NCBI RefSeq assembly: GCF_016026235.1
Contig: NZ_CP065613.1
Direction: 5' to 3' (one strand)
Length of the DNA stretch: 64,000 nucleotides
From: Escherichia coli
GTDB taxonomy: Bacteria > Pseudomonadota > Gammaproteobacteria > Enterobacterales > Enterobacteriaceae
Part shown: positions 19,393-64,000 of the stretch, in pieces
How the letters are laid out: every line of letters begins with the position of its first letter
Position numbering within the stretch: the stretch's first letter is position 1
Made by a program: the position numbers and the translations under genes
Notes under the pieces: model-generated
What the model was told of the DNA's origin: nothing
Databases searched by the model: none
The model's input: the letters and a program-made list of their open reading frames with translations, nothing else

Positions 19393-21233
<1,841 letters not shown>

Positions 21234-21261
21234 ATCCTTTTCAGCCGCGTAATGGCTTGTT

Positions 21262-21277
21262 TGCAAAGCGGATGCCA
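21262..21277 (-). promoter_or_regulatory. sigma-54 (-24/-12) promoter of rutA: TGGCATCCGCTTTGCA on the minus strand
   Basis: GG-N10-GC element read as rc of tgcaaagcggatgcca, about 30 bp upstream of the rutA start; the rut operon is known to be sigma54/NtrC dependent. Confidence 0.7.
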
Positions 21278-21341
21278 GTTTTTAAAAAGTGAATGTTATT
21301 AATGTGTTAACATTGTGTTGTCTAAAATATCTGGTAAAAAG

Positions 21342-21357
21342 TGGACTAAACGGTCAA
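21342..21357. promoter_or_regulatory. candidate RutR operator (TTGACCGTTTAGTCCA-like imperfect palindrome) in the rutA-rutR intergenic region
   Basis: Matches the TTGACCAnnTGGTCAA RutR consensus at 11/14 positions. Confidence 0.35.
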
Positions 21358-21463
21358 AACAGTTGCACATAAAACATGCATCTGTGCGCGATGAGAGTGC
21401 AGAAGGTCGAGGCCGGGCGGGGGTTTTGCTATCCTGTTGCCAATCTACAAGAGGGGAGAGCGC

Positions 21464-22102
21464 ATGACGCAAGGCGCAGTGAAAACAACGGGTAAACGTT
21501 CGCGCGCAGTAAGCGCGAAGAAAAAAGCGATTCTTAGCGCAGCACTGGACACTTTTTCACAATTCGGTTTTCACGGCACAAGGCTGGAGCAGATCGCAGA
21601 GTTGGCGGGTGTTTCAAAAACCAATCTGCTGTATTACTTCCCGTCAAAAGAGGCGCTGTATATTGCCGTGCTGCGGCAGATTCTCGATATCTGGCTGGCA
21701 CCGTTAAAAGCGTTTCGTGAAGATTTCGCCCCGCTGGCGGCGATCAAAGAGTACATCCGTCTGAAGCTGGAAGTCTCACGCGATTATCCGCAGGCTTCGC
21801 GCCTGTTCTGTATGGAGATGCTGGCAGGCGCGCCGCTGTTAATGGATGAACTGACGGGCGATTTGAAGGCATTAATTGATGAGAAATCGGCGCTGATTGC
21901 CGGTTGGGTCAAAAGCGGCAAACTCGCGCCGATTGATCCGCAGCATTTGATTTTTATGATTTGGGCTTCCACTCAACATTACGCCGATTTCGCCCCTCAG
22001 GTGGAGGCGGTGACAGGCGCAACGTTGCGCGATGAGGTATTTTTCAATCAAACGGTTGAAAACGTGCAGCGGATTATTATTGAGGGGATTCGACCACGTT
22101 AA
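21464..22102 (+). CDS. rutR: TetR-family repressor RutR
   Basis: ORF track 21437..22102; MTQGAVKTTGKRSRAVSAKKKAIL start; TetR HTH; 212 aa. Confidence 0.9.
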   Translation: MTQGAVKTTGKRSRAVSAKKKAILSAALDTFSQFGFHGTRLEQIAELAGVSKTNLLYYFPSKEALYIAVLRQILDIWLAPLKAFREDFAPLAAIKEYIRLKLEVSRDYPQASRLFCMEMLAGAPLLMDELTGDLKALIDEKSALIAGWVKSGKLAPIDPQHLIFMIWASTQHYADFAPQVEAVTGATLRDEVFFNQTVENVQRIIIEGIRPR

Positions 22103-32335: not shown

Positions 32336-33400
32336 ATGGTAACGTCCTGTACTGGACATGTTTTAGATAATCAACGCGCCACCACTCGCGGAGTTTTCTC
32401 CTCCGGTAGTCATCTCGTCACTTTGCATTTTCAACCTCATCCTTTCTTTTCATGTGTTACCGACGCCGTAAACGGTGCGCGTAGCCGTTTTTCGGCATTT
32501 TATCCAAAAGCAAACTATGGCTTACAAGGAAGCCAACCCTCTGATGTTCGTGCGCATAATCGCGCTGCCAACGGCGCGTGTGATGAATACAAACAACTCA
32601 AGGTGCTCTCCATGGGAAGACAAAAAGCAGTGATCAAAGCTCGTCGCGAGGCAAAACGTGTGCTGAGACGGGATTCGCGCAGCCATAAGCAGCGTGAAGA
32701 AGAATCGGTCACCTCGCTTGTGCAGATGGGCGGCGTAGAAGCCATTGGTATGGCCCGCGACAGTCACGATACTTCGCCCATCCTCGCGCGAAATGAAGCG
32801 CAATTGCACTATCTGAAGGCTATTGAGAGTAAGCAGCTGATATTCGCCACGGGCGAAGCCGGGTGCGGAAAAACCTGGATCAGCGCAGCAAAAGCGGCAG
32901 AGGCCCTGATACATAAGGATGTCGACAGGATTATCGTCACCCGTCCAGTTCTGCAAGCCGATGAAGATCTTGGCTTCTTACCTGGAGATATCGCAGAAAA
33001 GTTTGCTCCCTATTTTCGCCCGGTCTACGACGTGCTGGTCCGGCGCTTAGGGGCTTCCTTTATGCAGTACTGCCTGCGACCGGAAATAGGGAAGGTGGAA
33101 ATCGCGCCGTTCGCCTATATGCGTGGACGTACCTTTGAAAATGCAGTCGTCATTCTTGACGAGGCGCAGAATGTGACTGCCGCGCAAATGAAAATGTTTT
33201 TAACCCGCCTCGGGGAGAACGTGACGGTTATCGTCAACGGTGATATCACGCAATGCGATTTGCCTCGCGGCGTCTGCTCCGGATTAAGTGACGCGCTGGA
33301 ACGTTTCGAAGAAGATGAAATGGTTGGGATCGTCCGGTTCGGAAAAGAGGATTGCGTACGTTCGGCACTTTGCCAACGTACGCTGCATGCATACAGTTAA
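32336..33400 (+). CDS. phoH: phosphate-starvation-inducible ATPase PhoH
   Basis: 354-aa ORF with Walker A GEAGCGKT and PhoH family signature. Confidence 0.9.
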   Translation: MVTSCTGHVLDNQRATTRGVFSSGSHLVTLHFQPHPFFSCVTDAVNGARSRFSAFYPKANYGLQGSQPSDVRAHNRAANGACDEYKQLKVLSMGRQKAVIKARREAKRVLRRDSRSHKQREEESVTSLVQMGGVEAIGMARDSHDTSPILARNEAQLHYLKAIESKQLIFATGEAGCGKTWISAAKAAEALIHKDVDRIIVTRPVLQADEDLGFLPGDIAEKFAPYFRPVYDVLVRRLGASFMQYCLRPEIGKVEIAPFAYMRGRTFENAVVILDEAQNVTAAQMKMFLTRLGENVTVIVNGDITQCDLPRGVCSGLSDALERFEEDEMVGIVRFGKEDCVRSALCQRTLHAYS

Positions 33401-57424: not shown

Positions 57425-57453
57425 TTGAGACACTTTCAACGTAACGGTAGAAT
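57425..57453 (+). promoter_or_regulatory. sigma-70 promoter for the recombinase (TTGAGA -17 bp- TAGAAT), embedded in repeated TTTTGAGAC motifs
   Basis: -35 at 57425-57430 and -10 at 57448-57453. The 11-bp inverted repeat ccttttgagac/gtctcaaaagg (57421-57431 / 57467-57477) brackets it; further TGAGAC copies at ~57491 and ~57505. Confidence 0.55.
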
Positions 57454-57526
57454 GCACCCTCAAGTAGTCTCAAAAGGTTGTTTTTGGATTATGAGACTAA
57501 CTTTTGAGACTTCTAAGGGGAACATT

Positions 57527-58078
57527 ATGGCGATACTTGGATATTGCAGGGTGAGTACAGATGACCAATCCATCACTAACCAGCAAATGCAAATTGAAGA
57601 GGCAGGGTACAACATTGCTAAATGGTTCACTGATGAAGCTGTCAGTGGTTCTGTCAAAGCTTCTTTAAGAAACGGTTTCAGTAGTTTGTTAGCTTATGCA
57701 CGAGAAGGTGACACCGTAGTTGTGGTAGCTGTAGACCGTCTTGGACGTGACACAATTGATGTGTTATCAACGGTTAAAGCGCTACAGGCTAAAGGTGTGA
57801 CAGTTATCAGCCTTAGAGAAGGGTTTGACTTATCAAGCGCTATGGGTGAAGCAATGTTAGGCATTATGTCAACGTTGGCACAGCTTGAAAGAAGCTTGAT
57901 AGCAGAGCGTAGAAAGGCTGGTATTGAACGTGCTAAAGCTGAAGGGGTACATATGGGAAGACCTGTAAAAGCTTCTTCAGAGGCTGTACAGATGCTTATT
58001 TCACAAGGTAAAACGAGGTTGCAGATTCAGGAAGAGCTAGGAATCTCTAGAGCAACTTATTACAGACTTGCTAAATAA
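57527..58078 (+). CDS. small serine recombinase of the Hin/Gin/Pin invertase-resolvase family (184 aa)
   Basis: MAILGYCRVSTDDQ catalytic-serine motif, VVAVDRLGRDTIDVL, C-terminal HTH GISRATYYRLAK; RBS taagggg 7 nt upstream. ORF track 57389..58078. Confidence 0.88.
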   Translation: MAILGYCRVSTDDQSITNQQMQIEEAGYNIAKWFTDEAVSGSVKASLRNGFSSLLAYAREGDTVVVVAVDRLGRDTIDVLSTVKALQAKGVTVISLREGFDLSSAMGEAMLGIMSTLAQLERSLIAERRKAGIERAKAEGVHMGRPVKASSEAVQMLISQGKTRLQIQEELGISRATYYRLAK

Positions 58079-58422
58079 GTTATTAAACAGTTACATGGAT
58101 GTGACTGATATTTGGCTTTTTTGCAAAGGGGGTGCTATATCGAGAATGTACCGTACCAAGCAGCTACAGACATCTGTTAGATATTTTCGAAGATTTTTAG
58201 AAGGGGAATTTGAAGAGGGGCTACTACGATTTTATAAAAATTTTCAGATTCTGAAAAGTTACTGTACAGAATACATACAGACATCTTTAAAGTATCTATA
58301 AAGACTTTTAAGATAAAAGATAGATATCCCAGAAAGGATATCCGTTTAGAAAGCCTGTTAAGTATCTCTTAAAAGAGAGTAAACCTTGTCAATAGTGATT
58401 GCAATAAAAATTTTTATTTCTT

Positions 58423-59085
58423 ATGTCAATTGAGCATATTTTAATCGGGAAACATCATGGGGGTTCTGATTACTGGAGAACTCCATTTCTTATATTCCGC
58501 AATTTGCACCGTGAATTTATTTTCAGTCTGGATGGTGCTGCAACTGAGCATGACACGCTGTTACCACGATTCACCGATGATATTCACAATCAGTCATGGG
58601 ATGGTGAAAGGGTCTTCGTTAACCCACCATACAGCGACACTAAAACATTCCTCGTAAAAGCGTCTGAAGCAGATTTAGCGGTATTCCTGATACCGTACCG
58701 ACCCCAAACCATATACTGGCTTAAGCACATCTTCACAAACCCGCTTTGCCATGAAATCCGTATTCTTCATCGTGCAGTTAAATACCTTCCACCAGCAGGG
58801 CATAACAGGCTTACTATTAGGTCACCGTTTCCAAGTGCAGTCGTTGTTTTTAAAAAAGAACCACGTAAGCATGAAATTACACAGATGATTTGCTGTGGTG
58901 ACACATTGCTACCGTTAACCATCATTAACCGTGGTGGACTAAGAGGAAGACCCACCATTTACCCACCTGAGACGCTCGACAGCTTCATAAAACTATACAG
59001 GCAAGGCAAACCCATTAAGTGCATTGCAGATGCTCTCAGAATGCCCCTGAGCACGTCATACAGGATTGCTCAAAGGTTGAGCTAA
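58423..59085 (+). CDS. phage Dam-type N6-adenine DNA methyltransferase (NPPY motif) with C-terminal resolvase-like HTH extension
   Basis: GGSDYWRTPF...FSLDGAATEHDT...ERVFVNPPYSD resembles the phage N-6-adenine-methyltransferase family. The last ~60 aa (PIKCIADALRMPLSTSYRIAQRLS) resemble a resolvase-type HTH. Confidence 0.7.
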   Translation: MSIEHILIGKHHGGSDYWRTPFLIFRNLHREFIFSLDGAATEHDTLLPRFTDDIHNQSWDGERVFVNPPYSDTKTFLVKASEADLAVFLIPYRPQTIYWLKHIFTNPLCHEIRILHRAVKYLPPAGHNRLTIRSPFPSAVVVFKKEPRKHEITQMICCGDTLLPLTIINRGGLRGRPTIYPPETLDSFIKLYRQGKPIKCIADALRMPLSTSYRIAQRLS

Positions 59086-59465
59086 AATTCTCATAAATAT
59101 GGTCATTTACAAGACAGGTGTTTTAGATATTAAGAAGTATCCCTGTGAACAATAAATGACCAATCAGTAATTATTCTGTGAAATAATTGTTGCAATTTAT
59201 AATCACATCTGTTATAGTTTCTATGGGCTGATAAAAGAACTCAGAACATTAAGAGGTTACAACGTTGGGAGGCGTCAGAGTATTGACGGATTTTCACAGC
59301 CTCTTATTCATTCAAGGCTTTTCCTTTTGCTGTTAATGCTCGCGTAATCGCTCAGGCTTCTGAGTTCCTTTATCAGTCCATCTTCTAATTAATTCACTCC
59401 CTCTGGGGTTGGTCACTATACGTGGTCAGCCCTTTCTTTGTTTTATTTTTAAAAAGGAAAACGTA

Positions 59466-60401
59466 ATGGAAAAATTTCACATGTTTGATGACCGTATTTA
59501 TCAGATGACTAATGGCGTTAAAGCTGCCGACCGTATTATTTACACTGTCATGTTGAATGAACAAAAGTTTTATCACGATAAGGGGCAATATTATACCCCT
59601 TCATATGCTCATCTTGGTCAGTATGCTGGAATCACAAGAACATCCGTGATTGCATGTATGAAACGACTTGAGGCACATGGTTTAATCAAGAAAACTAACG
59701 TTGCAAGCAATCAGTGTGTTATTAAAGTTTATTCACTTGATGAAGTACCGGAAGTTTTAACAGAGCTTACAGCTAAGGAAGCCAGAAAGGCAAAGCTGGA
59801 GTCTAAAGTTACTCAGTCAGTCAAGAAAGATGACCCACTGAGTCAAAATTCTTTACCCACTGAGTCAAAATTTTTTACTCAGTCAGTCAAAATCTTTGAC
59901 ACGTATAATAACAGTAATAACAAGAAAGAACTTATTAATAACAATAAAGAAGATGACTTTGAAGAAGAATCTCTTAAGAAGGGAGCTTCGCTCTGTGATT
60001 CACATGAATGTGATTCTCTTGGTATTGAAGAGGCTATTAAACAATCTGACTTGGATGACCTTGATAAAGAGGCTATTAAACAAGATGAAGTAAACTCTGA
60101 TGTGAATGAAGTTAGTGACCAGCAAGATACACCTTGCCGCCTCGAATCAACTGATGATGAATTACCGGATGTTGACCTTGATGATGAAGAAGACCCTGAA
60201 GAGGAATTGAAACGTGAACAGCGTAAAGCAGAAATTAAAGAAAGATTCAGAAAGGCGAAGCTAAAGAGCAGGATTGATGAACTTGATGACTTTGATGATA
60301 GTGACGATGATTTTACTTTTACACCAAAAAAGAAAACTCACACCGAGCCAAAGAAAGAAAAAGTTAAAGTCAGACGTGTTTATGGTGGAGGAATGTTTTA
60401 A
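59466..60401 (+). CDS. lambda-O-like replication initiator (winged-helix N-domain) with long acidic low-complexity C-terminus
   Basis: YTPSYAHLGQYAGITRTSVIACMKRLEAHGLIKK DNA-binding motif typical of phage replication-protein O N-domains; iterons inside the gene; RBS aaggaaa before ATG 59466. ORF track 59409..60401. Confidence 0.6.
   Translation: MEKFHMFDDRIYQMTNGVKAADRIIYTVMLNEQKFYHDKGQYYTPSYAHLGQYAGITRTSVIACMKRLEAHGLIKKTNVASNQCVIKVYSLDEVPEVLTELTAKEARKAKLESKVTQSVKKDDPLSQNSLPTESKFFTQSVKIFDTYNNSNNKKELINNNKEDDFEEESLKKGASLCDSHECDSLGIEEAIKQSDLDDLDKEAIKQDEVNSDVNEVSDQQDTPCRLESTDDELPDVDLDDEEDPEEELKREQRKAEIKERFRKAKLKSRIDELDDFDDSDDDFTFTPKKKTHTEPKKEKVKVRRVYGGGMF
59811..59893 (+). repeat. candidate origin: four iterons (ACTCAGTCAGTCAAG, ACCCACTGAGTCAAAATT x2, ACTCAGTCAGTCAAAAT) followed by an AT-rich stretch, inside the rep gene
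   Basis: Direct/inverted repeats read at 59811-59825, 59833-59850, 59855-59872 and 59877-59893, then acgtataataacagtaataacaag; architecture like lambda ori within gene O. Confidence 0.6.
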
Positions 60402-60691
60402 TGAAAACTTATAATGGCGAGAGAAAATACCGTGACTATTTACTCAGACGTTACAGCATTTCTCGTGAAGGTTACTTGATGAAAGATACTCACGGGGAAG
60501 TTTACCGGATTCGACCGAAGAAAGAAGGGAGGGATTATTATTTCGTCGATGGTGTGACAGATTTAAAGATTGACGCTTTGAGGTTTGCAGTGATGTATCA
60601 TTTTGATATCTGGGATTCAGTCCACCAGCTACGATTAAAAGACGGTGACCCCAATAACTTAAAGGCCACCAATATTATCACAAAACGTTAG
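60401..60691 (+). CDS. HNH_3/NUMOD4-like small protein (96 aa), translationally coupled to the rep gene (ATGA overlap)
   Basis: YSISREGYLMKDTHGEVYRIRPKKEGRDYYFVDGV...VHQLRLKDGDPNNLKATNI fits the Y-x-VS-x-G-x-V...H-x-DG-x-x-NN-x-x-NL pattern of phage HNH homing-endonuclease-like proteins. Confidence 0.45.
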   Translation: MKTYNGERKYRDYLLRRYSISREGYLMKDTHGEVYRIRPKKEGRDYYFVDGVTDLKIDALRFAVMYHFDIWDSVHQLRLKDGDPNNLKATNIITKR

Positions 60692-60873
60692 TTTGTTTTA
60701 CCATCATCAATCGTAATTGTGATTTCATATTTGAAAAGCTTAATGCTGAAATTGAATCGTGTACTTTTGGCGATAATCATTTTTAAAAGCTGATACACCA
60801 GAAGCACCAGAAACACAAAGCAACCTAAGCTTGCGAATCTGTGAGATTCAGCAATTGTTTCAAGAAAGCCCAT
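60688..60873 (-). CDS. 61-aa single-pass membrane protein on the opposite strand, with strong RBS
   Basis: MGFLETIAESHRFASLGCFVFLVLLVYQLLKMIIAK...; rc shows TAAGGGGAATTAATG (SD 5 nt before ATG); driven by a near-consensus minus-strand promoter. Confidence 0.55.
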   Translation of the reverse strand: MGFLETIAESHRFASLGCFVFLVLLVYQLLKMIIAKSTRFNFSIKLFKYEITITIDDGKTN

Positions 60874-60924
60874 TAATTCCCCTTATTTATCAAAGGGAAT
60901 GACCTGTATCAGCCCCCTATAAAC

Positions 60925-60975
60925 ATAATATCATGTAAATGAGATGTTGACAATATGTTAAATAAATGTTAAGAT
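60925..60975. promoter_or_regulatory. face-to-face divergent promoters sharing the TTGACAA core
   Basis: Minus strand: TTGTCA -17- TATTAT (60948-60953 / 60925-60930). Plus strand: TTGACA -17- TAAGAT (60947-60952 / 60970-60975). Geometry resembles a phage immunity/anti-immunity switch. Confidence 0.5.
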
Positions 60976-61011
60976 TGTAGTATGAGCAAGAGATTTAAGG
61001 AGATTTTTGCA

Positions 61012-61302
61012 ATGACTCACACAGTTACGCGCCTTTTGCCAGAGGCATTTGAACGACTGGCAGCAATCAAAGCCAAATACCCTGATATGAAGCACACAGC
61101 GCTTGTTGGAGAGCTTTTAAAAGAGTCGGTAGCCCTGACCCCTTTCGATAACGTTAAGGGCGTTGCAGAGGGTTCTAAGGCCATCAGAATCACAACAGGC
61201 CAACTGGAACTACTCAAAGCACAGTCCGCAGTAGCAGGTTGCTCAATGATTCAGGTGTTAAGCGCGAAGGTTCATCAACTGGCGGATAGATTGGAGGTTT
61301 GA
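61012..61302 (+). CDS. hypothetical protein (96 aa from ATG 61012 with AAGGAG SD; alternative leaderless start at 60982 gives 106 aa)
   Basis: MTHTVTRLLPEAFERLAAIKAKYPDMKHTALVGELLKE...; no recognisable domain. Confidence 0.5.
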   Translation: MTHTVTRLLPEAFERLAAIKAKYPDMKHTALVGELLKESVALTPFDNVKGVAEGSKAIRITTGQLELLKAQSAVAGCSMIQVLSAKVHQLADRLEV

Positions 61303-61727
61303 TGCTATGTACATTTGATTATCATGCGTTTTATCGCCATAGAGGTCATCTTGTCCGTGAGAATAACGGAACATGGAAAGATTTAACTCGTAATGCTGAA
61401 CCCTTCACACACCAGCAATTAAAATCCCGCTTCTCCAGATGGAAGAATGCACCAGCAGATACTGGTGATTTTGAGATTACCCATACATTTGATTACGCAT
61501 CAGAAGATGACCTTCGCAATGCAATTAAGCTGATTGAAGACTTCAATACCTCAGAAGATGTGGATGGTGACAAATATAAATCCCGTGGTAACCGCTATAA
61601 CCGTGATGATATCACTCAGGCCATAAATGCTGGTCAATCTCAGCGATACATCACAGAAAAATATGGTATTTCACGGAGACAGTATTTCTACGTTAAATCA
61701 TTGATTAATAAGGACAATTCAAAATAA
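61299..61727 (+). CDS. hypothetical protein with C-terminal resolvase-type HTH (142 aa)
   Basis: C-terminus DDITQAINAGQSQRYITEKYGISRRQYFYVKSL resembles invertase/resolvase HTH; ATGA-coupled to the upstream ORF. Confidence 0.5.
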   Translation: MMLCTFDYHAFYRHRGHLVRENNGTWKDLTRNAEPFTHQQLKSRFSRWKNAPADTGDFEITHTFDYASEDDLRNAIKLIEDFNTSEDVDGDKYKSRGNRYNRDDITQAINAGQSQRYITEKYGISRRQYFYVKSLINKDNSK

Positions 61728-61735
61728 CCATCTAA

Positions 61736-61752
61736 GTAACGGTAGAATGCAC
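61736..61752 (+). repeat. 17-bp motif GTAACGGTAGAATGCAC, second copy in direct orientation (first copy at 57441-57457 in the recombinase promoter)
   Basis: Exact 17/17 match read at both positions, 4.3 kb apart. Confidence 0.7.
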
Positions 61753-61888
61753 TTTACAGGCAGAGTTGCACCTTAATTTGATAAATTACCTTACCAGCCA
61801 GTGCAACTCCCTCTGTAACCCGCATGGTTACTGGCCTCAGAATGGCTATTTTAAGAGGTCTGAGATGTGTTTTATAGGAAATTTAAAA

Positions 61889-62212
61889 ATGAGCAATTAC
61901 GAATTACAGATTTTTGTTGATAACGACACCGTGACCATGCTTCAACACTTCACTGATGTAGGTATCGCAATTAATTTTGATAAATTACTAAAGCTGATGG
62001 CTGATAATGCAGAAAACATCTCTGACTTTATTCAGTCGGTGGAGTTTAACGAGCCCCGAATGATGCTACCAATTACAGACAGCAGTATGAAGCGTCTTAT
62101 TATTGAGGAAACTAACCGATACAGCGTTAGCCCTGAAAAATATCTCAAGGCGGCTGTAACAATTTTGTACGCTGACAGTATTCTGGTGACGGATTCTGTG
62201 AGGGTTCACTAA
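61889..62212 (+). CDS. hypothetical protein (107 aa from ATG 61889; ORF track 61766..62212 begins at an upstream TTG)
   Basis: MSNYELQIFVDNDTVTMLQHFTDVGIAINFDKLLKLMADNAENI...; no recognisable domain. Confidence 0.4.
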   Translation: MSNYELQIFVDNDTVTMLQHFTDVGIAINFDKLLKLMADNAENISDFIQSVEFNEPRMMLPITDSSMKRLIIEETNRYSVSPEKYLKAAVTILYADSILVTDSVRVH

Positions 62213-62313
62213 TGGGTTTAATAATTGCTTGGACGTTGCTTGGCTTATTTGTTGGTTGCTGGGTGGGTAATACGGTAAATAAAAATTGATATTACCAATC
62301 TGTTAAAAAGCTG

Positions 62314-62342
62314 TTGACAAATAACCTTAAGCATGGCATAAT
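62314..62342 (+). promoter_or_regulatory. near-consensus sigma-70 promoter TTGACA -17 bp- CATAAT
   Basis: -35 at 62314-62319, -10 at 62337-62342; no ORF for the next 335 nt. Confidence 0.6.
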
Positions 62343-62677
62343 TTTAATTATGGGAGAGCAATTCTCTCTTATTTCTTTCAACAATTCCATCTACGTCTAG
62401 GGATAGTTATTCTGAAAGGTGCAATGCTTTTCGTCATGGCTTATTTAGCCCGCACTAAATAGGCCATATCAAAAATCTTTGTTCATTCATTGAATCCTTT
62501 AGATGTTTTTAATTTCTTCACCTTATGAATAGCCCTTTATAAGAAATTATCTAGGGCTATTCAGTTTTTAAAAAGCATACTTGGCAAACGCTTTTAAGTC
62601 TCTTCTAAGTTTTTTGTATGGCTGTCAAGTATGCTTTTTAAAAACTGAAATACTTTAGCTTAGAAGAGGAAAAAACA
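62343..62677 (+). ncRNA. candidate structured leader/ncRNA with a 24-bp perfect inverted repeat (62560-62583 / 62626-62649, 42-nt loop) and a second 8-bp IR (atagccct...agggctat, ~62527-62560)
   Basis: ttcagtttttaaaaagcatacttg ... caagtatgctttttaaaaactgaa read directly; region lacks any ORF; ends 28 nt before the strong SD agaggaaaaaacaATG of the next gene. Confidence 0.45.
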
Positions 62678-63388
62678 ATGACAAACGATTTATATTTTAA
62701 CGGTCGAAAGATTGATAGCTTCGGTGACTGGTCACCACAGACTGAACATCCGCTACATATTATTCAGCGTCAAGAGCATGACAAGCGTATTGAGCTTGAG
62801 CAAGAAATCCGAAGGTCACCAAAGGTAATTTCCTTTGTGTCCCCTGAGCCTCAAGAGATGCCTGATGTATGCAAAACTGAATCATTATTTAATCTTGAGC
62901 GTGAATATTACCCACTGCTAAAAGCACAGCGTATTAAACTAGATGATGCTTACGATGCTGTTAAGAACTTCGAAGAAACCTCGAAACCTTCAGAATATGA
63001 TATTGCTTACGAGATTAAGTCAAACCCGTTTATCTATTATGAAGGAAACTTTAATGATGGTTTTGGTACAGCGATTGAAGACGTTCCTAAAGTTCTTCAA
63101 AGTATCCCTGAAGGGTTCCGGTTAATTGATGTCAGACAAGCATTAAGGGGTTCTGGTCAATTTATTCTGATGACTGGTAAAACAGATGAAGAGATTCTTC
63201 AGTTAGCTGAAGCTAATTTGACTAAGCATTATTCCGGTAAACTGGATAAGTTAAAGCAAAAGCTTAAAAAAGAACTTGATAGCATGAAAGAACTTGTTAG
63301 TGAATATGAATCACAGAAGAAGATTGCTATGCAGGCTGATATTGAGCAGCTTACGAAGATTTCTCAGAAATATAGCAAAGCACTTTAA
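62678..63388 (+). CDS. hypothetical protein (236 aa) with C-terminal coiled-coil
   Basis: MTNDLYFNGRKIDSFGDWSPQ...; strong RBS AGAGGA; K/E-rich heptad-like C-terminus; no recognisable domain. Confidence 0.6.
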   Translation: MTNDLYFNGRKIDSFGDWSPQTEHPLHIIQRQEHDKRIELEQEIRRSPKVISFVSPEPQEMPDVCKTESLFNLEREYYPLLKAQRIKLDDAYDAVKNFEETSKPSEYDIAYEIKSNPFIYYEGNFNDGFGTAIEDVPKVLQSIPEGFRLIDVRQALRGSGQFILMTGKTDEEILQLAEANLTKHYSGKLDKLKQKLKKELDSMKELVSEYESQKKIAMQADIEQLTKISQKYSKAL

Positions 63389-63402
63389 TTATGAGGTGGT
63401 GA

Positions 63403-63609
63403 ATGATTGATTTAACAGAACGCTATGAGCTTATTAAAGCAATTAGCGAACGATTGAAAGAACAACCCAACAAACCAAAACGAATCAAATCATCCACCTC
63501 CTCTAAGCAAAATAACAGAATCAGAAGAATCGCTAAATGGTGTCTTGATAAATTACCAAGTGATTGTCAGATTGTCGGTGAAGATGGTAATTATTATCTG
63601 GTTAGGTAA
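63403..63609 (+). CDS. hypothetical basic small protein (68 aa)
   Basis: MIDLTERYELIKAISERLKEQPNKPKRIKSS...; RBS gaggtggtga before the ATG. Confidence 0.45.
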   Translation: MIDLTERYELIKAISERLKEQPNKPKRIKSSTSSKQNNRIRRIAKWCLDKLPSDCQIVGEDGNYYLVR

Positions 63610-63633
63610 AAATTGGTTGGGTAGAAAATCTAC

Positions 63634-63676
63634 GGGAGAGATTATCGATATTATTCGGTAGTTTCTCCCTTTTTTG
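63634..63676 (+). terminator. possible rho-independent terminator (gggaga...tctccc + T6)
   Basis: 6-bp stem with long loop followed by tttttt. Confidence 0.35.
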
Positions 63677-63775
63677 TATGTGCACTACGTGAAATCTGTA
63701 AAGCTAATATCTACACTGAAAAATAGAATTTACGTACAACACGCTTAAACAAAGGTATGAGGTGAAAAAATATGA

Positions 63776-64000
63776 ATGAGCAAATTCACAGTTGATAGTT
63801 TTATCGTTGAACTGGGCTTCAATGAGAACGTTATTAAAGGTCTGCAAAAAGTTGAAAAGGCAGCTTTGCAGTCAGCACAAAAAATTGAACGGAATTTGAA
63901 TAGAGCGTTTAAGGTCGATACCAAGCAACTTGACAGCAATTTAACGGCTTCTTTAAAGTCAATGGAGGGGAAGATTAATAAAACTTTTGACCGTCTGGAA
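63776..64000 (+). CDS. 5' part of an ORF running off the window end
   Basis: MSKFTVDSFIVELGFNENVIKGLQKVEKAALQSAQKIERNLNRAF...; RBS gaggtg upstream; no stop before the window end. Confidence 0.45.
   Translation, partial: MSKFTVDSFIVELGFNENVIKGLQKVEKAALQSAQKIERNLNRAFKVDTKQLDSNLTASLKSMEGKINKTFDRLE

What the first reader, a model, noticed from the sequence alone, without database searches (positions are those of the whole stretch)
62314..63388. Consensus promoter, 335-nt ORF-less structured leader with a 24-bp perfect inverted repeat, then a 236-aa unknown protein
A near-perfect sigma-70 promoter (TTGACA-17-CATAAT) fires into 335 nt with no reading frame. The leader contains a 24-bp perfect inverted repeat (ttcagtttttaaaaagcatacttg / caagtatgctttttaaaaactgaa, 42-nt loop) plus a second hairpin. 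It ends 28 nt upstream of a strongly ribosome-bound ORF encoding a 236-aa domainless protein with a coiled-coil tail. This layout of strong promoter, long structured RNA, U-rich hairpin and then effector gene recalls RNA-antitoxin plus toxin (type III-like), retron-like, or other RNA-guided or RNA-regulated defence loci. It matches none of them: there are no tandem repeats and no RT motifs.
Basis: seen in the sequence. Interest (0 to 1): 0.75.

Follow-up and report, generated by a model that had tools for sequence, protein, structure and literature searches.

The report
Structured RNA leader silencing satellite operon
The 335-nt gap is a conserved, heavily folded RNA leader, with a predicted terminator and a long hairpin whose loop masks the ribosome-binding site, that probably keeps a two-gene operon of a common but undescribed ~11-kb phage-related E. 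coli element switched off until some unknown signal arrives.

Summary
A TG-extended TTGACA-17-CATAAT promoter (62314-62342) fires into 335 nt with no credible ORF, ahead of a 236-aa orphan protein.

The window from about 57000 is an ~11-kb low-GC integrative element in yecE. It is present in about 10% of complete E. coli genomes.

In 83 distinct homologous leaders the same plus-strand RNA architecture recurs:
- 5' hairpins;
- an invariant 20-nt hairpin (62414-62433), exact even where the downstream protein is only 24% identical;
- a covarying hairpin H3;
- one or two terminator-like hairpins (T2, 62526-62569);
- a 21-29-bp hairpin H5 (62560-62649).

H5 exists in five sequence types. Each keeps the stem, with G·U pairs that only work on the plus strand. 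Each also carries a loop sequence complementary to its own Shine-Dalgarno region.

Best reading: a multi-layer "off" leader. Most transcripts stop at the terminator(s), and read-through mRNA is translationally masked by loop-SD pairing. Operator-like TGTTA repeats overlap the -35.

The type III toxin-antitoxin, retron and RNA-guided-defence readings are not supported. The RNA matches no Rfam family. The protein is a coiled-coil orphan; the RefSeq name "transposase" has no support. All function is inferred.

The parts
62290..62316 (+). Three phased direct repeats, T(A/G)TTA-N6-TGTTA-N6-TGTTG, with an 11-nt period. They run into the -35 hexamer and look like an operator.
   Evidence: The repeats are invariant while their spacers vary across loci, including the very divergent L110. 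A four-copy array of the same repeat spans a second promoter at 60935-60975. Only these two sites carry the array within 2.5 kb in 78 loci. Protein binding is inferred, not shown.
62314..62342 (+). Sigma-70 promoter TTGACA-17-CATAAT with an extended -10 TG. The predicted transcription start is about 62349.
   Evidence: scores it 11/12, the best site in 57000-64000. It is near-invariant in 98 loci. The transcription start is inferred.
62350..62372 (+). H1, a hairpin at the 5' end of the transcript.
   Evidence: Stem variants GGGAGAG/CUCUCUC, AGAGAG/CUCUCU and GGAAGAG/CUCUUCC all keep pairing.
62384..62404 (+). H1b, a small hairpin.
   Evidence: Three unrelated alternative sequences occupy this position in other loci, and each forms a hairpin.
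62414..62433 (+). Invariant 20-nt core GAAAGGTGCAATGCTTTTCG. It forms hairpin H2 (62414-62432): 7 bp with loop GCAAU.
   Evidence: A 16-nt part of it (62418-62433) is exact in 77 of the loci held. The 19-nt core is exact in viral contigs whose downstream protein is only 24% identical. In distant loci (L103, L106) the stem changes with G·U to U·G flips while UGCAAUG stays fixed.
62436..62467 (+). H3, a 13-bp hairpin that covaries.
   Evidence: In alignment A3, 5 of its 12 pairs change on both sides and 96.9% of cells are paired. Slid-register controls give 39-55% paired for the combined H2+H3 structure.
62513..62519 (+). UUUCUUC, a possible second anti-SD that pairs with GAGGAAA at 62666-62672.
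   Evidence: RNAalifold predicts this helix on short-form leaders. The sequence never varies, so there is no covariation support.
62526..62569 (+). T2, a terminator-like hairpin (62526-62563) followed by GUUUUU. It would end a roughly 220-nt RNA.
   Evidence: I15; dG -19.6, z -5.4. Every one of 83 distinct leaders has such a GC-stem plus T-tail hairpin at this place, and most have a second one (T1) upstream. Termination has not been tested.
62560..62649 (+). H5, a long hairpin: 27-bp stem, 36-nt loop.
   Evidence: Five sequence types keep a 21-29-bp stem. In alignment A4, 15 of 24 pairs change on both sides and 94.7% of cells are paired. The plus strand is more stable in 41 of 42 variants.
62598..62611 (+). 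Anti-Shine-Dalgarno sequence GUCUCUUCUAAGUU in the H5 loop.
   Evidence: It is complementary to 62657-62670. The window's loop-tail duplex, which includes a further 4-bp segment, has dG -19.7 kcal/mol. A loop-SD duplex is present in every intact H5 module (about 66 distinct ones). It changes together with the SD context in types A-E.
62657..62670 (+). Shine-Dalgarno region AGCUUAGAAGAGGA of the 236-aa ORF, the target of the H5 loop.
62678..63388 (+). 236-aa orphan protein. It is an antiparallel coiled coil (residues 68-101 and 170-235) with a small alpha/beta head (106-166).
   Evidence: AlphaFold2 mean pLDDT 76. Fold hits are generic coiled coils only. No family hit. Only 24 cluster representatives in 1.84 billion proteins match. 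Three alleles (100%, about 60% and about 24% identity) assort freely with the H5 types.
63403..63609 (+). 68-aa basic protein, the second gene of the operon.
   Evidence: It is 46-59% identical across all loci and better conserved than the 236-aa protein. No family hit. The single-sequence AlphaFold2 model has low confidence.
63634..63679 (+). Strong intrinsic-terminator-like site that closes the two-gene operon before the tape measure gene (which starts at 63776).
   Evidence: 15-bp stem followed by TTTTTTGTAT. The same site is present in L089.

Best explanation
What it is. The 335 nt are the transcribed 5' leader of a two-gene operon. The genes are a 236-aa coiled-coil orphan protein and a conserved 68-aa basic protein. 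The operon belongs to an ~11-kb phage-related, satellite-like integrative element inserted in yecE.

How it most likely works. The leader is a modular plus-strand regulatory RNA that holds the operon off by default, in layers.
1. The near-consensus promoter is overlapped by phased TGTTA repeats shared with a second promoter of the element. These are probably an operator.
2. Transcripts start about 62349 and fold into H1, H1b, the invariant H2 and H3. Most then end at the intrinsic terminator T2. In most relatives there are two terminators, T1 and T2. The product would be an abundant non-coding RNA of about 220 nt.
3. Transcripts that read through form the 27-bp hairpin H5. Its loop (62598-62611) base-pairs with the Shine-Dalgarno region (62657-62670) and blocks translation of the first gene.

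Switching on. Expression would need a signal that overrides termination and unmasks the ribosome-binding site. Candidates are processive antitermination, RNase III cleavage of H5, or a factor that recognises the invariant H2 loop. This would presumably happen on induction or helper-phage infection.

Shown versus inferred. Shown: conservation, plus-strand covariation, the terminator-like anatomy, and loop-SD complementarity that changes on both sides. Inferred: actual termination, translational repression, the operator, and the activating signal.
For: Context. GC drops to about 38% from 57000. Gene order is:
- small serine recombinase;
- Dam methylase;
- Rep-like HTH protein;
- four small ORFs plus a 25-aa peptide;
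- the leader;
- the 236-aa and 68-aa genes;
- a terminator;
- tape measure (PF20155);
- Dit_like protein (PF21821);
- large serine recombinase.

The element lies inside yecE. It is found in 556 of 5426 complete E. coli genomes.

Leader conservation.
- 83 distinct leaders of 317-516 nt share the same order of modules.
- The 19-nt core is exact even where the protein is 24% identical.
- H2 plus H3: 98% of cells paired and 7 of 18 pairs changed on both sides, against 0-3 in slid registers. No shuffle out of 500 reaches the observed covariation score.
- H5: 15 of 24 pairs changed on both sides and 94.7% paired. For the tested structure (H5 stem plus loop-SD helix) the slid registers give 39-53% paired.
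- Plus-strand H5 is more stable than the minus strand in 41 of 42 variants, -34.8 against -25.2 kcal/mol, with a median of 4 G·U pairs.

Terminators.
- Every leader has at least one GC-rich stem plus T-rich tail (T2).
- Most have two (T1 plus T2), including distant Citrobacter-type loci with compensated stems, GCCCUAA/UUAGGGC against GCCCUC/GAGGGC.
- The window's T2 has dG -19.6, z -5.4.

Loop-SD pairing.
- It is present in every intact H5 module, with dG -13 to -22 kcal/mol.
- Five types carry different partners:
  - A: CCUCUUCUAAG / CUUAGAAGAGG
  - B: UCUUCUAAGUGU / ACACUUAGAGGA
  - C: UUCACCUCU / AGAGGUGAA
  - D: AUUCACCUC / GAGGUGAAU
  - E: UCCUCUAAGUG / CAUUUAGAGGA
- Shuffle z-scores run from -2.4 to -5.0. 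The cognate partner is best in 4 of 5 types.
- The SD travels with the H5 type, not with the protein allele.

Operator-like repeats.
Against: - No transcript, termination or translation data exist here. The T2 loops are large in many relatives and its U-tract is interrupted (UAUUCAGUUUUU), so efficiency is unknown.
- The covariation rests on only about 4-6 independent sequence types that are spread by recombination. Cell counts therefore overstate the number of events.
- Any pyrimidine-rich loop will pair somewhat with an SD. Types A, B and E cross-pair at -15 to -18 kcal/mol, and loop E pairs slightly better with tail B than with its own tail.
- Geometry: the linker between the H5 base and the SD is only 5-9 nt in some loci. 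Cis pairing would need the long flexible loop linkers or melting of the A/U-rich lower stem.
- Alternative SD partners are predicted in this window: 62513-62519 and 62385-62405.
- No activator, antiterminator or Q/N homologue was found among the element's proteins.
- The most divergent relative (L110) keeps the promoter, the TGTTA repeats and a multi-terminator leader. It lacks the H2 core and has no clear loop-SD duplex.
Confidence: 0.55

Rival explanations
1. The functional product is a trans-acting small RNA. The promoter-to-T2 transcript (about 220 nt here, up to about 330 nt in long-form leaders) would be a stable sRNA, and the invariant H2 loop/core its seed or protein-binding site. It would act on host, helper-phage or element targets. 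The downstream operon would merely get residual read-through. This is the situation of StxS, which is made from the always-active Stx-phage late promoter by early termination. It is compatible with the best explanation rather than exclusive of it.
For: - A near-consensus promoter followed by conserved terminators.
- The 224-nt RNA folds with z -6.0.
- A 5' hairpin and a terminator hairpin are typical stabilising ends.
- The 20-nt core is far more conserved than any neighbouring coding sequence, as expected for a seed or recognition site.
- Precedent: PMC7547250.
Against: - No conserved complementary target was found in the element. The 10-nt match at 61765-61774 exists in only 9 of 97 loci.
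- The core's partial complementarity to the first arm of H5 is inconsistent between types.
- It does not explain H5 or the covarying loop-SD pairing, which lie downstream of the terminators.
- No expression data.
Confidence: 0.3
2. The leader is a P1 c4 / P4 CI-type immunity RNA. H5 would be processed out of the leader into a stable same-strand antisense RNA. Its loop would repress the RBS of the first gene in trans as well as in cis. That would block translation and, by polarity, transcription. The five H5/SD types would be specificity (hetero-immunity) groups among co-resident or incoming elements.
For: - The layout is the same: promoter, then an upstream-encoded structured RNA, then a complementary RBS on the same transcript.
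- Loop and target have diversified together into types, and C/D are orthogonal to A/B/E.
- Genomes can hold several copies of the element, up to 6 places.
[quoted passage not shown] Details of c4 and CI processing come from my own knowledge.
Against: - No hit to the Rfam C4 family or any other family, even at E <= 10.
- H5 is one long hairpin with a single target, not a two-loop c4 fold.
- No tRNA-like or RNase P features.
- Types A, B and E cross-pair strongly, so specificity is weak among the common types.
- H5 lies behind the terminators, so it would be made only from read-through transcripts.
Confidence: 0.2
3. The leader works like the lambda pL-nutL-N leader. The invariant H2 pentaloop hairpin would be a boxB-like site. 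It would be bound by the conserved, basic 68-aa protein encoded in the same operon, or by a helper-phage protein, giving processive antitermination through T1, T2 and the terminator at 63634. H5 would be an RNase III-sensitive hairpin next to the RBS that tunes translation.
For: - The invariant small hairpin sits upstream of several terminators.
- The 68-aa protein has an Arg/Lys-rich centre and is conserved across the whole family.
- A perfect stem of two or more helical turns next to an RBS is the classical RNase III arrangement (my own knowledge of the lambda N leader).
- A further terminator precedes the tape measure gene.
Against: - No sequence or profile similarity of any element protein to N, Q or other antiterminators.
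- The loop GCAAU does not fit the GNRA-like boxB pentaloop, and no conserved boxA was found.
- The AlphaFold2 model of the 68-aa protein is unreliable.
- This reading is analogy only.
Confidence: 0.1
4. One reading: an RNA-protein defence module such as a type III toxin-antitoxin pair, a retron, or an RNA-guided system, with the 236-aa protein as toxin or effector and the leader as its RNA partner.
For: - The layout of a strong promoter, a structured RNA and an unknown protein.
- The tight multi-layer repression is what one would expect for a harmful product.
Against: - No tandem repeats in the leader.
- No reverse transcriptase, ToxN/AbiQ, nuclease or any PADLOC hit.
- No retron msr/msd or other Rfam family.
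- The protein is a coiled coil without a catalytic-looking domain.
- The RNA contains terminators and an anti-SD, which are cis-regulatory features.
- The module is always embedded at the same place in a phage-like element, next to tail genes.
Confidence: 0.03
5. The function is at the DNA level. The long inverted repeat would be an operator, a cruciform, an origin or a packaging site, and the rest an ordinary untranslated region.
For: In this particular window the repeat is a near-perfect 27-bp palindrome-like structure.
Against: - In relatives the arms carry 2-6 G·U pairs, which are mismatches in DNA or on the minus strand.
- A 36-42-nt spacer is atypical for an operator.
- The arms are replaced wholesale between types while pairing is kept.
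- The loop is complementary to the SD.
- Iteron-like repeats, the likely origin, lie elsewhere at 59809-59890.
Confidence: 0.03

Closest known systems
Lambdoid late promoter region pR'-tR' (6S RNA; StxS in Stx phages) with Q antitermination
   Same: - A strong promoter stands at the border between regulatory/replication genes and morphogenesis genes.
- It fires into an ORF-less leader that ends at intrinsic terminator(s).
- The default product is therefore a short non-coding RNA, and downstream genes need read-through (PMC7547250; anatomy here).
   Different: - No Q homologue and no demonstrated Q-binding or pause element.
- The leader is longer, with several extra conserved hairpins and an invariant core.
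- It carries an additional anti-SD hairpin.
- The downstream unit is a two-gene operon closed by its own terminator before the tail genes.
- TGTTA repeats suggest the promoter itself is also regulated.
P1/P7 immI operon (c4 RNA - icd - ant) and P4 immunity (CI RNA, seqA/B/C)
   Same: - A regulatory RNA is encoded upstream on the same strand and the same transcript as its target.
- Exposed loop bases pair with the ribosome-binding region of the first downstream gene.
- RNA and target have diversified together into types.
- P4 is likewise an E. coli satellite.
   Different: - No homology: Rfam C4 and all other families are negative.
- One long hairpin with one target instead of two loops and two targets.
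- The hairpin sits behind the terminators.
- Processing and trans-action are untested.
- The common types cross-pair.
Lambda pL leader (nutL boxB, RNase III-sensitive hairpin, N gene)
   Same: The order matches: a promoter, a small conserved hairpin, a long double-stranded hairpin abutting the RBS, then the first gene. There are terminators to be overcome, and a small basic protein is encoded in the same operon.
   Different: - No N-like protein family hit.
- The H2 loop is not a boxB-type pentaloop, and there is no boxA.
- Here the hairpin loop itself carries the anti-SD.
IncI-alpha/IncB plasmid repZ/repA leader pseudoknot
   Same: The loop of an upstream hairpin pairs with a sequence at the RBS of the downstream gene on the same mRNA.
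   Different: - There the pairing activates translation and is blocked by a minus-strand antisense RNA.
- Here the duplex covers the SD itself, so repression is expected.
- No conserved antisense promoter exists here.
Type III toxin-antitoxin systems (ToxIN, AbiEi-like layouts)
   Same: A promoter, then a non-coding RNA with a terminator-like hairpin, then a protein gene.
   Different: No tandem repeat array, no endoribonuclease toxin family, and the RNA is complementary to the RBS.

Membership tests
Rfam C4 antisense RNA / P4 CI-type immunity RNA | Match to the family covariance model (shared sequence and structure) | tested here: not met
   cmscan of the whole window at gathering score and of 62250-62750 at E <= 10 gave no C4, IsrK or other bacterial/phage regulatory family. 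Only chance microRNA-type hairpin hits appeared.
Rfam C4 antisense RNA / P4 CI-type immunity RNA | An upstream, same-strand RNA whose loop is complementary to the RBS region of the downstream gene | tested here: met
   A loop-SD duplex is present in every intact H5 module, with dG -13 to -22 kcal/mol, and it changes on both sides between five types.
Rfam C4 antisense RNA / P4 CI-type immunity RNA | Processing to a small stable RNA (RNase P) and repression in trans | not testable with these tools
   Needs Northern blots or RNA-seq and trans-complementation. ARAGORN sees no tRNA-like element in the leader.
Lambdoid pR'-tR'/Q late control | A strong promoter followed by an ORF-less leader ending in intrinsic terminator(s) ahead of late genes | tested here: met
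   This is predicted anatomy only.
Lambdoid pR'-tR'/Q late control | A Q-family antiterminator gene adjacent upstream | tested here: not met
   The 96-, 106-, 142- and 107-aa upstream ORFs have no Pfam, PHROG or NCBIfam hit. The 142- and 107-aa ORFs also have no significant PDB sequence hit.
Lambdoid pR'-tR'/Q late control | A sigma-dependent promoter-proximal pause element (-10-like hexamer in the initial transcribed region) and a Q-binding element | tested here: inconclusive
   AATTAT-GGG (62346-62354) or TATATA-GGG follows the -10 in most variants. Its position overlaps the expected start site, and nothing can be tested in silico.
Type III toxin-antitoxin | A tandem array of short RNA repeats as antitoxin | tested here: not met
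   TRF with minimum score 30 finds no array in 62343-62677.
Type III toxin-antitoxin | A ToxN/AbiQ-type endoribonuclease toxin | tested here: not met
   No PADLOC or Pfam hit. The predicted fold is a coiled coil.
Retron | A reverse transcriptase next to an msr/msd RNA | tested here: not met
   No reverse transcriptase domain in any ORF from 57389 to the end of the window. No retron RNA family.
Intrinsic (Rho-independent) terminator | A GC-rich stem-loop followed directly by a U-tract, conserved in position | tested here: met
   T2 is at 62526-62569. Equivalent hairpins are present in all 83 distinct leaders, with compensated stems in distant loci. Activity is untested.
Riboswitch / known cis-regulatory leader | Match to a curated aptamer or leader family | tested here: not met
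Transposase (the RefSeq product name of the 236-aa protein) | A recognisable transposase domain or family | tested here: not met
   No Pfam or NCBIfam hit. The profile search of PDB sequences gave only weak chance matches (E >= 0.005). The fold is a coiled coil with a small head.

The most novel reading that the evidence does not exclude
The leader would be the sensor and switch of a previously unrecognised class of E. coli phage satellite. This satellite brings its own tape measure and distal tail protein. The invariant H2 hairpin would be recognised by a helper-phage or element factor. That factor would convert a constitutively made, terminated sRNA-like transcript into a read-through, RBS-unmasked mRNA. 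The result would be release of a coiled-coil morphogenetic or interference protein only during helper infection. The covarying H5/SD types would then act as hetero-immunity groups between competing satellites.
Probability: 0.15. Interest if true: 0.85.

Novelty: new variant of a known kind. Interest (0 to 1): 0.6.

Why it matters
- It defines an undescribed structured RNA family. It is not in Rfam, not annotated in RefSeq, and its core sequence was not found in the searched literature. The family has strong comparative support and sits in an element carried by roughly one in ten sequenced E. coli.
- The design stacks up to four controls in front of an orphan protein: operator-like repeats, one or two terminators, and an anti-SD presented on a long RNase III-sized hairpin. 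That makes it a compact, testable model for how satellites and defective prophages keep a gene silent yet poised.
- The 20-nt invariant hairpin is conserved beyond any neighbouring protein. It points to a specific, still unknown recognition partner.
- The host element carries only a tape measure and a distal tail protein as structural genes, plus two serine recombinases. It matched none of the satellite descriptions found in the searched papers.

Tried and rejected
- Rfam at gathering score and at E <= 10 gave nothing relevant.
- Phage and plasmid collections gave no match, near or distant.
- Literature searches found no description. Terms tried were the core sequence, yecE elements, and satellites with tape measure or Dit genes.
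- A target for the invariant core was sought inside the element.
  - A 10-nt complement at 61765-61774 looked promising but exists in only 9 of 97 loci, so it was rejected.
  - Complementarity between the core and the first arm of H5 (8 nt in types A and B) shifts or fades in types C-E. It cannot compete with a 24-bp stem, so it was rejected (by eye).
- Minus-strand antisense RNA: the promoter-like site at 62784-62757 is not found in L093 or L089, and the G·U pattern favours the plus strand. Rejected.
- boxA-like (CUCUCUUA, UUUCAACAA) and RfaH ops-like (CGGTAGAATG at 57444 and 61739) resemblances were recalled from memory.
  - The boxA-like stretch is not conserved across leader variants, and the ops-like repeat lies outside the leader.
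  - Neither was pursued.
- Leader peptide: the 16-codon ATG ORF at 62350 is absent from most variants.
- Protein function:
  - no Pfam, PHROG, NCBIfam or PADLOC hit;
  - only weak chance matches to PDB sequences;
  - Foldseek against viral structures gave all E > 0.1;
  - the afdb50 library was unavailable;
  - the 68-aa protein model was too uncertain to search with.
- Remote relatives P0281 and P0283 were not found in viral contigs. They were recovered through the look-up of encoding contigs.
- A column-based covariation test of the loop-SD helix fails for types C and D, because the pairing register shifts there. A duplex-energy test was used instead.
Full report
**1. Observation**

- TTGACA (62314-62319), 17 nt, CATAAT (62337-62342) with an upstream TG is the best sigma-70 match in the 7 kb scanned: 11 of 12 positions.
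- The 335 nt up to the ATG at 62678 contain only ORFs of 32 codons or fewer, with no ATG plus SD.
- The inverted repeat is 62560-62583 / 62626-62649. It is 24 bp perfect, or 27 nt at 96% as extended by the tool.
- A second hairpin lies at 62526-62563 (I15).
- The leader RNA folds far better than shuffles, z -7.1.
- There are no tandem repeats and no Rfam family.

**2. Context**

From about 57000 the GC content falls from about 50% to about 38%. The genes are phage-like:
- a small serine recombinase (57389-58078);
- a Dam methylase;
- a replication-initiator-like HTH protein;
- several orphan ORFs;
- after the finding, the start of a tape measure gene (63776 onward).

Complete copies in E. coli chromosomes show an ~11-kb element inside yecE. 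It ends with a tape measure, a Dit_like (distal tail) protein and a large serine recombinase.

It occurs in 556 of 5426 complete E. coli genomes at 80-90% identity. It is absent from the phage and plasmid collections. I found no description of it in the searched literature.

It has the look of a phage satellite or a minimal defective prophage. That is an inference.

**3. The leader is conserved and modular**

Sources were viral, metagenome and genome contigs plus look-ups of remote protein relatives. From these I collected 98 loci with 83 distinct leaders of 317-516 nt. All share the same order:
1. promoter;
2. H1;
3. a small hairpin with three alternative sequences (H1b);
4. optional inserted hairpins;
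5. an invariant core;
6. H3;
7. optional terminator T1;
8. terminator T2;
9. long hairpin H5;
10. the SD.

The core GAAAGGTGCAATGCTTTTCG (62414-62433) is exact in loci whose downstream protein is only 24% identical to the window's. In Citrobacter-type and other distant loci the stem changes (G·U to U·G, A-U to G·U) while UGCAAUG stays fixed.

**4. Covariation and strand**

H2 plus H3:
- 98% of cells are paired.
- 7 of 18 pairs changed on both sides, against 0-3 in slid registers.
- No shuffle out of 500 reaches the observed covariation score.

H5:
- Five sequence types (A, the window's, to E) share little arm sequence but keep 21-29 bp.
- 15 of 24 pairs changed on both sides and 94.7% are paired. 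For the tested structure (H5 stem plus loop-SD helix) the slid registers give 39-53% paired.
- H5 variants carry a median of 4 G·U pairs.
- The plus-strand RNA is more stable than the minus strand in 41 of 42 variants, -34.8 against -25.2 kcal/mol.

The window's near-perfect repeat is therefore an exception. The structure is selected in plus-strand RNA, not in DNA.

Caveat: the sequences are related and recombine. The number of independent events is about 4-6 per helix, not dozens.

**5. Terminators**

Every distinct leader has a GC-rich stem, (A)GCCCU...AGGGC(U), followed by a T-rich tail at the T2 position. Most also have T1, GCCCUAA...UUAGGGC plus UUUCUUU. Distant loci keep both, with compensated stems.

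In the window only T2 is present (62526-62563 plus GUUUUU; dG -19.6, z -5.4). A transcript from about 62349 to about 62572 would be a 224-nt RNA with z -6.0. Termination itself is inferred.

**6. Loop-SD pairing**

The H5 loop contains GUCUCUUCUAAGUU (62598-62611), which is complementary to AGCUUAGAAGAGGA (62657-62670). That region includes the SD, 7-8 nt before the ATG. The window's loop-tail duplex has dG -19.7 kcal/mol.

- A loop-SD duplex of -13 to -22 kcal/mol exists in every intact H5 module.
- Where the SD context differs, the loop differs to match: CUUAGAAGAGG, ACACUUAGAGGA, AGAGGUGAA, GAGGUGAAU and CAUUUAGAGGA each have their own complement.
- Shuffle controls give z -2.4 to -5.0.
- The cognate partner is best for 4 of 5 types.
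- H5/SD types assort freely with the three protein alleles, so the SD belongs to the leader module.

I infer that this pairing masks the RBS. Cis pairing is sterically possible only through the long loop linkers or opening of the A/U-rich lower stem. Action in trans cannot be excluded.

**7. Promoter control**

Upstream of and into the -35 lie three TGTTA-type repeats with an 11-nt period (62290, 62301, 62312). The repeats are invariant and their spacers vary, even in the most divergent locus, L110.

A four-copy array covers the only other consensus-like promoter of the element, at 60935-60975. No other site within 2.5 kb has the array in 78 loci.

So the promoter is probably not simply constitutive. 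The binding protein is unknown.

**8. The proteins**

The 236-aa protein:
- no family hit and only weak chance matches to PDB sequences;
- only 24 cluster representatives among 1.84 billion proteins, all from this element family where I could check;
- an AlphaFold2 model (mean pLDDT 76) of a long antiparallel coiled coil with a small alpha/beta head;
- fold hits that are generic coiled coils only;
- the RefSeq name "transposase" therefore has no support.

The following 68-aa basic protein is better conserved than the 236-aa protein, at 46-59% identity. A strong terminator at 63634-63669 separates this two-gene operon from the tape measure gene.

**9. Interpretation**

The best-supported mechanism is a cis-regulatory plus-strand RNA leader that holds the operon off by stacked devices:
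- operator-like repeats;
- one or two intrinsic terminators, which would yield a short abundant RNA;
- an anti-SD presented on a long hairpin.

The activating signal is unknown. Candidates are processive antitermination, RNase III cleavage of H5, or a factor that recognises the invariant H2 loop.

Closest analogues:
- the lambdoid pR'-tR' arrangement, whose terminated transcript is the sRNA StxS (PMC7547250);
- the same-strand antisense immunity RNAs of P1 (c4; PMC8546580) and P4 (CI; my own knowledge);
- the lambda N leader with its RNase III hairpin (my own knowledge).

It is a member of none of these. The Rfam models are negative, and no Q, N or related protein was found.

The type III toxin-antitoxin, retron and RNA-guided-defence readings fail their defining features.

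**10. Verdict**

This is a real and strongly conserved regulatory RNA of an undescribed family, in a widespread and uncharacterised satellite-like element. It is a new variant of known kinds of phage leader control. Function is inferred from anatomy and comparative evidence only.

Noticed in passing
window 60935-60975 and 62290-62316: Phased TGTTA-type direct repeats with an 11-nt period cover both consensus-like promoters of the element, four copies at the first and three at the second. The repeats are invariant and the spacers vary across loci. They are probably a shared operator for an unidentified DNA-binding protein.
   Followed up: partly
window 62212-62290: A conserved 25-aa hydrophobic peptide, MGLIIAWTLLGLFVGCWVGNTVNKN. 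Its ATG overlaps the stop of the 107-aa ORF (TAATG) and it ends just before the leader promoter. Variants are present in all loci checked. It could be a small membrane peptide or toxin.
   Followed up: partly
window 57000-64000 and loci L089, L103, L106, L110, L111: The host element is ~11 kb, lies in yecE, and is carried by about 10% of complete E. coli genomes. Its only recognisable structural genes are a tape measure (PF20155) and a Dit_like distal tail protein (PF21821). It also has Dam, a Rep-like protein and two serine recombinases. No description was found in the searched literature. It may be a new kind of phage satellite or tail-interference element.
   Followed up: partly
window 63403-63609: A 68-aa basic protein with the central motif KPK..RIK....K..RRI.KWC. 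It is 46-59% identical across the whole element family, more conserved than the 236-aa protein it follows. It has no family hit.
   Followed up: partly
window 57446-57458, 61441-61453, 61741-61753: The repeated motif GGTAGAATGCAC(C/T) sits ahead of the small recombinase gene and of the 107-aa ORF, within a 22-nt repeat that is 91% identical. It contains a TAGAAT -10-like hexamer and resembles the core of an RfaH ops element (CGGTAGnnTG). Its meaning is unknown.
   Followed up: no
window 59809-59890: Three copies of TTACTCAGTCAGTCAA (one at 81% identity) lie inside the Rep-like ORF. They look like iterons and may mark the element's replication origin. A 38-nt inverted repeat at 79% lies upstream at 59223-59381.
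   Followed up: no
window 61747-61825: A second structured intergenic region lies upstream of the 107-aa ORF, with a 25-nt inverted repeat at 76%. It contains GTTGCACCTT, which is complementary to the leader core, but this cassette is present in only 9 of 97 loci.
   Followed up: yes
window 62678-63388: RefSeq/PGAP names this protein 'transposase' in hundreds of E. coli genomes. No domain, family or fold evidence supports that name.
   Followed up: yes
window 62513-62519: An invariant UUUCUUC(ACCU) lies upstream of T2 in short-form leaders. RNAalifold pairs it with the SD (GAGGAAA, 62666-62672). It is a possible second anti-SD, but there is no covariation to test it.
   Followed up: partly
locus L059 (T2 hairpin): The loop of terminator T2 is reverse-complemented relative to all other loci (AAACATAATCTGTGA against TCACAGATTATGTTT). 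It looks flipped by recombination across the stem.
   Followed up: no
window 20700-21900 versus 50000-57000: rutA/rutR lie about 35 kb from torYZ-cmoAB-yecN in this window. From my memory of the K-12 map, that is not the K-12 arrangement, so the strain may carry a large rearrangement. The rutA-rutR intergenic region also holds a three-copy TGTTA array (21294-21320).
   Followed up: no
window 33202-33395 (-), 55065-55107 (-), 40863-40950 (-): Rfam hits above the gathering score to Ysr251 (178 bits) and ES036/CssrF (48 bits), and a tRNA-Ser(GGA). All are unrelated to the finding.
   Followed up: no
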